Below are positions 11,283-12,535 of a stretch of DNA of 28,381 nt, in pieces (positions within the stretch are counted from its first letter, which is position 1; each line of letters opens with the position of its first letter). The DNA lies in the IMG/VR virus record IMGVR_UViG_2534681833_000008; one strand, given 5' to 3'. A program made the position numbers and the translations under genes. The notes beneath the pieces were generated by a model. It was not told the origin of the DNA. It did not search any database and worked only from the letters and a program-made list of their open reading frames with translations. The stretch is from a virus. Its lineage: Duplodnaviria; Heunggongvirae; Uroviricota; Caudoviricetes.

Positions 11283-12535
11283 GCGAGTTGAGTTATCTGG
11301 AAAAATTGCTGGATGGGGTTGAGGTTGAGTGGAAACCCTTGAAGGATGTTTGTGATTTTAAAAATGGATTTGCATTTAAAAGCAGCTTATTTAAAGAAAC
11401 TGGGTTACCGATAGTTAGAATCACAAATATAGATGGATTTAATGTTGACTTAGATGAGGTGAAATACTTTTCACTAAATGATTACAAGGAAGATTTATCC
11501 TCCTTTGAGGTATCTATGGGAAATATATTGATTGCAATGTCAGGTGCCACTACAGGAAAAGTGGGAATTTATAAAAAAGGAACAAAATGTTATCTTAACC
11601 AACGGGTTGGAAAATTCATACCCAAAGAAAATATTCTAAACAATAATTATTTATACCATTTTTTATTGTTAAATACAGAGACTATTTATATCCTCGCCGG
11701 GGGCGGAGCACAACCGAATCTAAGCTCAAATGCATTGATGTCAAAACTACTCATCCCAATTCCCTGCCCGGATAATCCGGAAAAATCCCTCGCCATCCAG
11801 TCTGAAATCGTTCGGATTCTGGACAAATTTACTGCACTTACCGCTGAGCTTACCGCTGAGCTTAACATGCGTAAAAAACAGTACAACTACTATCGCGACC
11901 AGTTGCTGAGTTTTAAAGAGGGTGAGGTTGAGTGGAAGGCATTGGGAGAAGTAGCCAAAATACAACGTGGGGCATCCCCCAGGCCAATTGTTAATTATCT
12001 TACTGAACAAGGAAATGGTATCCCATGGATTAAAATCGGAGATACTATCCCCGGCTCTAAATACATTGACAAAACCTTACAAAAAATAACTGCAGAGGGT
12101 GCCCAAAAATCGCGAATCTTGAACCCCGGTGATTTCGTCATTTCTAACTCTATGAGCTTTGGCAGACCATATATTTTAAGGATAACCGGAGCTATCCATG
12201 ATGGATGGGCATCAATCAGCAATTTTGGTGAAAAATTAAATGCTGATTATCTGTATCACTATCTTTCATCAAAAAAGGTGAAAAATTATTGGGAAAGTAA
12301 AATCAATAGCGGGTCGGTCAGTAACTTGAATGCAGATATTATAAAAACATTACCAGTGCCATTGCCTGATAAACAGAAACAAGAGCGAATATCTGCTCTG
12401 CTCGATAAATTCGACACCCTGACCAACTCCATCACCGAAGGTCTCCCGCGTGAAATCGAGTTGCGCCAGAAACAATACGAGTACTATCGTGACTTACTGT
12501 TCAGTTTCCCGAAACCTGAAACTGTCAGTAATTAA
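11279..12535 (+). CDS. hsdS: Type I R-M specificity subunit HsdS, IC family (EcoR124/Ecoprr-like)
   Basis: Two target-recognition domains separated by conserved central ([26 protein letters not shown]) and C-terminal ([19 protein letters not shown]) repeats; the TAEL tandem repeat is the hallmark of IC-family HsdS. Confidence 0.95.
11837..11863 (+). repeat. 12-bp tandem repeat CTTACCGCTGAG x2 (+CTT) encoding the TAEL-TAEL spacer in the HsdS central conserved region
   Basis: Read directly from the sequence. In EcoR124I versus EcoR124II, two versus three copies of this repeat change the spacer of the recognition sequence from N6 to N7. Confidence 0.9.

What the first reader, a model, noticed from the sequence alone, without database searches (positions are those of the whole stretch)
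11837..11863. HsdS carries the TAEL 12-bp tandem repeat (2 copies): a built-in spacer-length switch
The central conserved region of HsdS contains CTTACCGCTGAG twice in tandem. In the EcoR124I/EcoR124II pair, copy number (2 versus 3) changes the recognition sequence spacer (N6 versus N7) by unequal crossing-over or slippage. This allele is in the two-copy state and could switch specificity in a population.
Basis: partly seen in the sequence, partly recalled or inferred. Interest (0 to 1): 0.55.

Follow-up and report, generated by a model that had tools for sequence, protein, structure and literature searches.

The report
Spacer-length repeat in restriction specificity gene
The specificity gene of a complete EcoR124-type restriction system on a P1-like phage-plasmid carries two copies of the textbook 12-base "TAEL" repeat, and a near-identical element elsewhere has the same gene with three copies, so the known spacer-length change has happened in this lineage; this is a new example of known biology.

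Summary
CTTACCGCTGAG occurs 2.3 times in perfect tandem at 11837-11864. It is in frame in hsdS (11279-12535) and encodes [10 protein letters not shown] in the middle of the central coiled-coil helix.

The locus is a complete type IC system in the order hsdM-hsdS-hsdR. HsdM, HsdR and the HsdS conserved regions match EcoR124I over their full length; only the two DNA-recognition domains differ. It is cargo on a P1-like (IncY) phage-plasmid.

- An IMG/VR contig is 99.85% identical to the window over 11.25 kb. Its HsdS is exactly the window protein plus one TAEL unit.
- Other otherwise-identical pairs exist with 2 versus 3 units, and 1 versus 2 at protein level. E. coli alleles carry 1 to 4 units.
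- Across 80 species, adjacent units are identical at the DNA level in 60 of 88 pairs, against 1.3 expected. This indicates recurrent expansion and contraction.

Not shown here:
- The recognition sequence. "N6" is only the expectation by analogy. The firmer prediction is that the spacer grows by 1 bp per added unit.
- The switching rate. With two units it is probably low, and ordinary read pileups would likely miss it.

The mechanism is textbook (EcoR124I/II).

The parts
9726..11282 (+). hsdM, 518 aa, N6-adenine methyltransferase subunit. Its stop codon overlaps the hsdS start (ATGA at 11279-11282).
   Evidence: PF02384 and PF12161. Full-length match to EcoR124 HsdM 7bst_D, 1142 bits over residues 1-518. 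The ATGA overlap is read from the sequence.
11279..12535 (+). hsdS, 418 aa, specificity subunit (end coordinate includes the stop codon).
   Evidence: Translation. Two PF01420 domains. 7bst_A E=4.6e-85, aligned 1-418. The AF2 model has the HsdS fold and its best Foldseek hit is 7bst_A.
11336..11752 (+). N-terminal target recognition domain (TRD1, about aa 20-158), which specifies one half-site. It is unlike the EcoR124I TRD1. The same TRD1 occurs in chromosomal E. coli alleles (P0055, P0068) and, diverged, in Klebsiella plasmid alleles.
   Evidence: Alignment to 7bst_A is weak in this stretch. Shared-TRD relatives are seen. Boundaries are approximate, taken from the conserved columns.
11753..11938 (+). 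Central conserved region (aa 159-220). It contains the long helix aa 167-209 (11777-11905), one strand of the antiparallel coiled coil that sets the distance between the two TRDs.
   Evidence: Identical to EcoR124I HsdS across this region. Invariant columns are listed. The model shows a helix at 167-209.
11837..11864 (+). The 12-bp tandem repeat CTTACCGCTGAG: unit 1 at 11837-11848, unit 2 at 11849-11860, partial third unit CTTA at 11861-11864. It encodes L187-TAEL-TAEL-L196 and is the substrate for gain or loss of one unit.
   Evidence: A three-unit version of the same allele is L086.
11939..12364 (+). C-terminal target recognition domain (TRD2, about aa 221-362), which specifies the other half-site. 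It is shared at about 96% nucleotide identity with the alleles in L002, L003 and L004.
   Evidence: Boundaries are approximate.
12365..12532 (+). C-terminal conserved region (aa 363-418) with helix aa 365-408 (12371-12502), the partner strand of the coiled coil. Between LDKF and the R-QKQY motif it has 17 aa ([17 protein letters not shown]), against 13 aa ([13 protein letters not shown]) in the central helix with two units. Three units would make the two helices equal in length.
12657..15773 (+). hsdR, 1038 aa from the ATG at 12657 (the mechanical ORF starts at GTG 12597). It is the translocase and endonuclease subunit and is separated from hsdS by 121 nt.
   Evidence: Seven Pfam families, among them HSDR_N, SWI2_SNF2/ResIII, T1R_D3-like and EcoR124_C. 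Full-length match 1-1038 to EcoR124I HsdR 2w00_A, 2288 bits. Relatives annotate a 3117-nt hsdR.
15967..15989 (+). Terminator-like hairpin (10-bp stem followed by a T run), 194 nt after the hsdR stop. It is a possible end of the hsd transcript.
   Evidence: Consensus scan only; not evidence of function.

Best explanation
This is the specificity gene of an intact EcoR124-family (type IC) restriction-modification system carried as cargo on a P1-like phage-plasmid.

HsdS has two DNA-recognition domains held apart by an antiparallel pair of long helices. The 12-bp repeat encodes two TAEL units in the middle of the first helix.

Misalignment of the two identical 12-bp units adds or removes one unit. 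This could happen by replication slippage or by unequal exchange between plasmid copies. Each unit lengthens the helix by about one turn. In the characterised family members this moves the domains apart by one base-pair step, so the enzyme then methylates and restricts the same two half-sites separated by one more, or one fewer, unspecified base.

Shown here:
- the anatomy of the locus;
- family membership by sequence and fold;
- that this exact allele exists in both two-unit and three-unit forms on near-identical elements;
- that unit number turns over throughout the family.

Inferred:
- that the change shifts the spacer by 1 bp for these particular recognition domains;
- that the two-unit form has an EcoR124I-like adenine spacing (N6 if the half-sites are 3 and 4 bp);
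- that slippage is the molecular route;
- that the rate is low.
For: Repeat and frame.

Type IC membership: the order is hsdM-hsdS-hsdR, with an ATGA overlap between M and S and a 121-nt gap before R. HsdM matches 7bst_D at 1142 bits over 518 aa. HsdR matches 2w00_A at 2288 bits over 1038 aa and has the EcoR124_C domain. The HsdS conserved regions are identical to EcoR124I. In the model the repeat lies inside helix 167-209, opposite helix 365-408, and the best fold match is 7bst_A.

Published mechanism: 2 versus 3 TAEL units gives GAA N6 RTCG versus GAA N7 RTCG. EcoR124I/EcoDXXI hybrids changed spacer exactly as predicted when the unit number was changed (PMC3874165; PMC7383803; PMC9159934).

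Natural switch in this allele: L086 (IMGVR_UViG_648276648_000009) is 99.85% identical to window 6887-18127. It differs by 4 SNPs, one 1-nt indel and one extra unit, and its HsdS equals the window HsdS plus TAEL.

Other pairs identical except for one unit:
- L108, L109 and L110 (3 units) versus L113 (2 units), with 0-3 SNPs in 6.2 kb;
- L127 (3 units) versus L143 (2 units);
- P0055 (2 units, 14 contigs) versus P0068 (1 unit, 47 contigs), and P0005 versus P0007.

Unit counts: in an even-step sample of 1354 E. coli records, 38 rows had the window's length (2 units), 19 were +12 (3 units) and 1 was +24 (4 units), out of 58 informative rows. Four-unit alleles were confirmed by sequence. Across 80 species found through a C-terminal motif there were 47 with two units, 21 with three and one with five.

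Concerted evolution: adjacent units are identical at the nucleotide level in 60 of 88 pairs, against 1.3 expected from each gene's own codon usage. Lineage-specific variants (TTEL, QAEL, EAEL) are the same in every unit within a gene.
Against: - No methylome or restriction data exist for this allele, so neither the half-sites, nor N6, nor the +1 shift is demonstrated here.
- Every complete record of this allele in PLSDB and in the complete E. coli genomes has two units: 4 and 3 records, overlapping sets. The two-unit protein is on 91 + 21 contigs. The three-unit form was found once.
- Offset alignment of only two 12-bp units gives 16 bp of pairing, which is a poor substrate. Scaling one event against 1-4 SNPs per 6-11 kb suggests roughly 1e-7 to 1e-5 per generation. 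This is my own rough inference from two events.
- The direction of each change (gain or loss) is unknown.
- Short-patch conversion from another type IC allele in the same cell cannot be told apart from slippage in place.
Confidence: 0.85

Rival explanations
1. The repeat is a fixed structural element. Two TAEL units are simply the standard length of the helix in this lineage, and copy number does not change on any timescale that matters to a population, so calling it a switch is over-interpretation.
For: Two units is the commonest state: 105 of the 120 closest homologues and 47 of 80 species. All complete records of this allele have two units. Only 2.3 copies of a 12-bp unit are present.
Against: The same allele occurs with three units on a 99.85%-identical backbone. 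At least four further pairs are identical except for one unit. The units stay identical at the DNA level far beyond what codon usage predicts, 60 of 88 against 1.3 expected, which requires repeated turnover.
Confidence: 0.08
2. The copy-number variants arise by homologous recombination or short-patch gene conversion with a different type IC hsdS allele in the same cell, not by slippage within the allele. The allele itself would then be a recipient of the change, not its source.
For: The central conserved region is nearly identical in DNA between alleles with different TRDs. Genomes that have this region carry up to 6 copies of it. Three-unit alleles with the same unit sequence are common in E. 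coli. TRD shuffling by recombination in these conserved regions is established for type I systems (PMC3874165).
Against: L086 keeps the window's own synonymous marker just upstream of the repeat (GGACAAATTT, where the L002-type alleles have GGATAAATTT). Any converted patch must therefore have been very short. The outcome, one extra unit and hence a changed spacer, is the same either way, so this rivals the route and not the function.
Confidence: 0.25
3. The locus is a high-frequency phase-variable contingency locus (a phasevarion-type epigenetic switch) that keeps both specificities within every population.
For: In-frame repeats in hsdS have been proposed as phase-variation substrates, and the TAEL tract is mentioned in that context (PMC7383803).
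Against: There are only two units of a 12-bp repeat, whereas known contingency loci have long tracts of short units. All complete records of this allele share one state. Unit-number changes accompany 1-4 SNPs per 6-11 kb and are not seen between identical backbones sampled many times.
Confidence: 0.04
4. The differences in unit number between records are sequencing or assembly artefacts.
For: Tandem repeats can be miscounted by assemblers.
Against: The whole tract is 24-48 bp, shorter than any read. The three-unit sister allele is in three independent complete plasmids from the Netherlands, Viet Nam and a wastewater plant. All variants remain in frame and differ by exactly 12 bp.
Confidence: 0.02

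Closest known systems
EcoR124I / EcoR124II (EcoR124/3), type IC restriction-modification system of plasmid R124
   Same: The gene order is the same. HsdM and HsdR match over their full length at about 2.2 bits per residue. The N-terminal, central and C-terminal conserved regions of HsdS are identical, including the same 12-bp unit encoding TAEL. The window is in the same two-unit state as EcoR124I, and its lineage shows the same natural two-unit/three-unit relationship.
   Different: Both recognition domains differ from those of EcoR124I, so the recognition sequence is not GAA N6 RTCG and remains unknown. The carrier is a P1-like phage-plasmid and not the conjugative plasmid R124.
EcoDXXI and EcoprrI (type IC, three TAEL units, N7 spacers)
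   Same: They belong to the same family and have the same repeat. They correspond to the three-unit state seen in L086. In that state the central helix linker (17 aa) equals the one in the C-terminal helix.
   Different: Their recognition domains differ, and no two-unit or three-unit natural partner is described for them in the review read here.
NgoAV hsdS poly-G tract (Neisseria gonorrhoeae, type IC)
   Same: A repeat inside hsdS changes specificity instead of switching expression on and off.
   Different: NgoAV uses a frameshifting homopolymer that truncates HsdS to a half-subunit recognising a palindrome. Here the change is in frame and alters only the spacer.
Inverting or shuffling hsdS loci (recombinase-driven TRD exchange). 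This comparison rests on my own knowledge; it was not read here.
   Same: They diversify type I specificity within a lineage.
   Different: Those systems swap whole recognition domains through a site-specific recombinase and silent hsdS copies. I noted no second or partial hsdS copy in the window's ORF list, though I did not search for one specifically. The P1 cre-type recombinase seen in the relative L001 lies upstream of the window's start.

Membership tests
Type IC restriction-modification systems (EcoR124I family) | Gene order hsdM-hsdS-hsdR, with hsdM and hsdS coupled and hsdR set apart | tested here: met
   ORFs at 9726-11282, 11279-12535 and 12657-15773. The M stop and S start overlap at ATGA, and a 121-nt gap precedes hsdR.
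Type IC restriction-modification systems (EcoR124I family) | HsdM and HsdR close enough to family members to cross-hybridise or complement (sequence similarity used as a proxy) | tested here: met
   HsdM against 7bst_D: 1142 bits over 518 aa. HsdR against 2w00_A: 2288 bits over 1038 aa, both full length. The EcoR124_C domain PF12008 is present.
Type IC restriction-modification systems (EcoR124I family) | HsdS layout: short N-terminal conserved segment, TRD1, central conserved region with TAEL repeats, TRD2, C-terminal conserved region | tested here: met
   The model shows two globular domains plus two long helices, and Foldseek gives 7bst_A and 1yf2_A as best hits.
Type IC restriction-modification systems (EcoR124I family) | Genetic complementation and antibody cross-reactivity with family members; ATP-dependent translocation with cleavage far from the site | not testable with these tools
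   These need experiments.
TAEL copy-number specificity change (EcoR124I/II type) | Perfect in-frame 12-bp tandem units encoding TAEL in the central helix | tested here: met
TAEL copy-number specificity change (EcoR124I/II type) | Variants of the same allele that differ only in unit number | tested here: met
   The HsdS of L086 equals the window HsdS plus one TAEL, on a 99.85%-identical 11.25-kb backbone. A sister allele gives the pair L108-L110 versus L113.
TAEL copy-number specificity change (EcoR124I/II type) | [quoted passage not shown] | not testable with these tools
   This is known for EcoR124I/II and for EcoR124I/EcoDXXI hybrids (PMC3874165). No methylome is available for this allele.
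TAEL copy-number specificity change (EcoR124I/II type) | Switching observed within a clonal culture | not testable with these tools
   No read data were available. The primary papers on R124 switching (Price 1987 and Gubler & Bickle 1991 were tried) are not in the held library.
Phase-variable contingency loci / phasevarions | A hypermutable simple-sequence tract that gives frequent, reversible switching | tested here: inconclusive
   Only 2.3 copies of a 12-bp unit are present. One state is seen in all complete records of the allele. Turnover is visible only on evolutionary timescales. The rate was not measured.

The most novel reading that the evidence does not exclude
The nucleotide-perfect identity of the TAEL units is seen from Enterobacteria to Bacteroidia, Cyanobacteria, clostridial lineages and an Actinomyces MAG, with lineage-specific variants made uniform within each gene. 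The most novel reading is that this is not just a by-product of slippage but is maintained by second-order selection for evolvability. On that reading the tract is a conserved, family-wide mutational dial (1 to 5 units) that lets type IC systems shift specificity by one spacer base and so escape phages or plasmids that carry the old modification or have lost the old sites. This would include systems riding on temperate phage-plasmids such as this one.
Probability: 0.15. Interest if true: 0.55.

Novelty: new member of a known kind. Interest (0 to 1): 0.3.

Why it matters
The mechanism has been textbook since 1987-1991, so this locus adds little conceptually.

What is useful:
- It documents natural, near-isogenic two-unit and three-unit pairs of the same hsdS allele on P1-like phage-plasmids, from pigs, humans and wastewater for the sister allele. 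These are ready material for testing what a one-base spacer change does to phage defence, plasmid uptake and the methylome.
- It shows that unit number varies from 1 to 4 among E. coli alleles, and that the units evolve in concert across phyla. Genome annotation and methylome-motif assignment for type IC systems should therefore record unit number and not treat alleles with identical recognition domains as equivalent.
- It warns that a pileup at ordinary depth is not an adequate test for this kind of slow switch.

Tried and rejected
1. Exact-sequence look-ups of in-silico 1-, 3- and 4-unit versions of this HsdS, and of nine other abundant alleles, in the 15-billion-protein collection were all negative. 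I reject these negatives as evidence. The positive control failed: the real three-unit RefSeq protein of L002 (WP_106108225.1) is also reported as "not in the collection". The three-unit form of the window allele was later found as DNA in IMG/VR.

2. An allele-specific anchored pattern found nothing in the metagenome contigs. The same pattern in the viral contigs found L085 and L086.

3. I could not read the primary papers on switching frequency and on 1- and 4-unit mutants (Price 1987, PMC553956; Gubler & Bickle 1991, PMC452739); they are not held. Literature searches for a rate found nothing usable. I therefore make no claim about the phenotype of 1- or 4-unit forms.

4. The recognition sequence could not be assigned. 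There is no REBASE access, and neither TRD resembles the TRDs of EcoR124I, the only type IC HsdS among the solved-structure hits.

5. The promoter scan around the operon was uninformative: 16 sites against 14.3 expected.

6. A literature search for type I systems on P1-like phage-plasmids returned nothing relevant.

7. I considered assembly artefact and high-frequency phase variation and rejected both; see the rival explanations.

Full report
**Observation.** The window reads ...AAATTTACTGCA CTTACCGCTGAG CTTACCGCTGAG CTTA ACATGCGT... at 11837-11864. Tandem Repeats Finder scores this as period 12, 2.3 copies, 100% matches. A run of at least 16 matches at lag 12 is expected about 5e-6 times by chance in this window, and it is the only such run at any lag from 4 to 30. 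The repeat is in frame in ORF 11279-12535 and encodes ...[30 protein letters not shown].... The perfect periodicity runs one base further, to 11864.

**What the gene and locus are.** The 418-aa product has two Methylase_S domains and aligns end to end with the EcoR124 HsdS chain 7bst_A (E=4.6e-85). The N-terminal segment, the central region ([12 protein letters not shown]...EGEVEWK) and the C-terminal region ([44 protein letters not shown]) are essentially identical to EcoR124I. The two recognition domains are not.

Upstream, hsdM (9726-11282) matches EcoR124 HsdM over its full length (1142 bits over 518 aa). Its stop overlaps the hsdS start at ATGA. Downstream, hsdR matches EcoR124I HsdR over residues 1-1038 (2288 bits) and has the EcoR124_C domain. 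Its likely start is the ATG at 12657, which gives 1038 aa as annotated in relatives.

An AlphaFold2 model (mean pLDDT 80.9) places the repeat (residues 187-196) in the middle of helix 167-209, opposite helix 365-408. Foldseek returns 7bst_A and other HsdS structures as best hits. This is therefore a complete type IC system whose only novelty relative to EcoR124I is its pair of recognition domains.

**Context.** The window is 100% identical to parts of E. coli plasmids NZ_CP122822.1 and NZ_MN510446.1. It lies on a P1-like, IncY, non-mobilisable phage-plasmid. The flanking genes are c1, pacAB, lpa, phd/doc, humD and hot on one side, and a phosphatase, pmgS and tail and baseplate genes on the other. 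P1 and P7 share the flanks but not the hsd genes. Phages vB_EcoM-673R5 and phi456 carry hsdMSR within the same stretch.

[quoted passage not shown] The repeat occurs twice in EcoR124I (GAA N6 RTCG) and three times in EcoR124II (GAA N7 RTCG), and encodes TAEL. EcoDXXI and EcoprrI have three units and N7 spacers. Hybrids with altered unit number changed spacer as predicted. PMC7383803 and PMC9159934 say the same.

**Has this allele switched?**

- *First attempt.* Exact-protein look-ups of in-silico 1-, 3- and 4-unit versions were negative. That test is unreliable, because a real three-unit RefSeq HsdS also failed to be found.
- *DNA search.* I then searched with a pattern anchored in this allele's own TRD1 and TRD2, allowing a variable gap. 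In IMG/VR it found two contigs. L085 has the window's length. L086 is 12 bp longer.
- *L086.* It aligns to window 6887-18127 at 99.85% identity. The only differences are 4 SNPs, one 1-nt indel and one extra CTTACCGCTGAG unit. Its HsdS is exactly the window protein with a third TAEL. The allele in the window therefore exists in nature in both states on near-identical elements.
- *Frequency of each state.* Every complete plasmid record of the allele has two units. The two-unit protein is on 91 + 21 contigs. The two-unit state looks like the common one.

**How general is it?**

- A sister allele has the same TRD2 and a different TRD1, also on P1-like plasmids. It has three units in NZ_CP122597.1 (pig, Netherlands), NZ_AP027786.1 (human, Viet Nam) and pR15_MCR-1 (wastewater). 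It has two units in pTA13-2 (pig, China) and in two Canadian pig plasmids. L002 and L003 are identical over 2381 nt apart from the unit. L113 differs from L108 and L109 by 1 SNP in 6.2 kb of hsdMSR.
- A metagenome pair, L127 (3 units) and L143 (2 units), is identical over the compared protein.
- Two protein pairs are identical except for one unit: P0055 (2 units, 14 contigs) against P0068 (1 unit, 47 contigs), both carrying the window's TRD1, and P0005 against P0007.
- In an even-step sample of the 1354 E. coli records that hold this conserved region, 38 of 58 informative rows have the window's length, 19 are +12 and 1 is +24. Four-unit alleles were confirmed by sequence (L114, L115).
- Eighty species-level loci were retrieved through the C-terminal motif, so retrieval was blind to the repeat. 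They span Proteobacteria, Bacteroidia, Cyanobacteria, clostridial lineages, a Spirochaeta MAG and an Actinomyces MAG. Of these, 47 have two identical units, 21 have three, one has five, and 12 have one unit or non-identical units.

**Concerted evolution.** Within genes, adjacent units are identical at the nucleotide level in 60 of 88 pairs. Each gene's own codon usage predicts 1.3, and the maximum in 20,000 simulations was 7. Between species the unit differs at synonymous sites (ACCGCTGAGCTT, ACCGCCGAGCTG, ACAGCAGAGCTT and others). Amino-acid variants (TTEL, QAEL, EAEL) are the same in all units of a gene. This pattern needs repeated duplication and deletion of units throughout the family's history. 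It is independent evidence that the tract is dynamic and not frozen.

**Mechanism and its limits.**

- *Geometry.* Between the LDKF motif and the R-K/Q-KQY motif, the central helix has 13 residues with two units, and the partner C-terminal helix has 17. A third unit makes the two equal. This fits the review's remark that three units look optimal from alignments.
- *Spacer prediction.* By analogy, two units should give the EcoR124I spacing between methylated adenines (interval 7 in Table 1 of PMC3874165) and three units the EcoDXXI/EcoprrI spacing (8). That translates to N6 and N7 only if the half-sites are 3 bp and 4 bp, as in EcoR124I. The robust prediction is one base pair per unit.
- *Route.* This is inferred. 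Offset pairing of two units offers only 16 bp. From general knowledge of short tandem repeats, I think replication slippage or sister-copy misalignment is more likely than RecA-dependent crossover. Short-patch conversion from another type IC allele is not excluded. L086 does retain the window's own synonymous marker 14 bp upstream of the repeat.
- *Rate.* One unit change accompanies 1-4 SNPs per 6-11 kb. Scaled to a typical bacterial point-mutation rate, this suggests very roughly 1e-7 to 1e-5 per generation. That is far below classical phase variation. It is an order-of-magnitude inference from two events and ignores selection.

**Comparison and verdict.** The locus passes every sequence- and fold-level test for the type IC family and for the EcoR124I/II type of TAEL copy-number change. 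Functional criteria (complementation, the spacer shift, switching in culture) cannot be tested here. It does not look like a contingency locus.

The finding is real and correctly interpreted. It is a new allele of a well-known kind. The added value is the natural two-unit/three-unit pair for this very allele, the 1-4 unit range in E. coli, and the evidence for concerted evolution across the family.

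Noticed in passing
window 1-28381 (context); L001: The whole window is a stretch of a P1-like (Punavirus, IncY) phage-plasmid. It carries c1, pacA/pacB, lpa, phd-doc, humD, hot, then hsdMSR, then a phosphatase, pmgS and tail and baseplate genes. P1 and P7 share the flanks but lack the hsd genes there. Phages vB_EcoM-673R5 and phi456 have hsdMSR within the same stretch.
   Followed up: partly
window 6823-9620: A 2.8-kb segment (humD, a DNA-binding protein gene, a hypothetical gene, hot, and about 1 kb with no ORF of 80 aa or more at 8594-9725) lies between phd and hsdM in the window. It is absent from the sister plasmids L108-L113, where hsdM starts 183 nt after phd. Homology to those plasmids resumes at 9621, 105 nt upstream of hsdM. 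The left junction of the hsd cargo is therefore variable.
   Followed up: partly
L108-L113 (NZ_CP122597.1, NZ_AP027786.1, NZ_MK256965.1, NZ_CP062860.1, NZ_CP069714.1), between the large N-6 DNA methylase gene and the maturation-control gene: One slot holds a different gene in each plasmid: SIR2-family, YaaC-family, RelA/SpoT-domain, GNAT or PIN-domain. From memory, this is where P1 itself carries its type III res/mod genes. It looks like a hotspot for swapping defence genes in P1-like plasmids. It lies outside the window.
   Followed up: no
L115 (NZ_CP122923.1, chromosome, 4490794-4491678): An IS3 element truncates a four-unit hsdS at its 5' end. This leaves a 294-aa product made of the central helix, TRD2 and the C-terminal helix. 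It resembles the engineered N-terminally deleted EcoDXXI HsdS, which acts as a homodimer on a palindromic site. Whether it is expressed is unknown.
   Followed up: no
L141 (OGXX01010214.1, 536-622): An odd allele reads [16 protein letters not shown]. One extra GAG codon turns the degenerate leading FTAL into a third perfect TAEL, so the helix is one residue longer instead of four. The effect on spacing is unknown.
   Followed up: no
L006 (Thiothrix MAG NZ_CALMZC010000028.1); L007, L013, L015, L021, L065 and others: The longest tract seen is five TAEL units (L006). Some lineages use TTEL, QAEL or EAEL units, and each variant is the same in all units of a gene.
   Followed up: partly
window 1-25000 compared with NZ_CP122822.1 and NZ_MN510446.1: Both 100%-identical records match in two pieces over a longer span than the query (26.3 kb and 28.5 kb for about 25 kb). 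An IS1203-family transposase is annotated under the match in NZ_CP122822.1. They therefore seem to carry an insertion that the window lacks.
   Followed up: no
window 3104-3137: A second, imperfect short tandem repeat (TCTTCG x4.3, also called as a 12-mer x2.5, 80-83% matches) lies where the two terminase ORFs (1586-3070 and 3070-4263, minus strand) meet.
   Followed up: no
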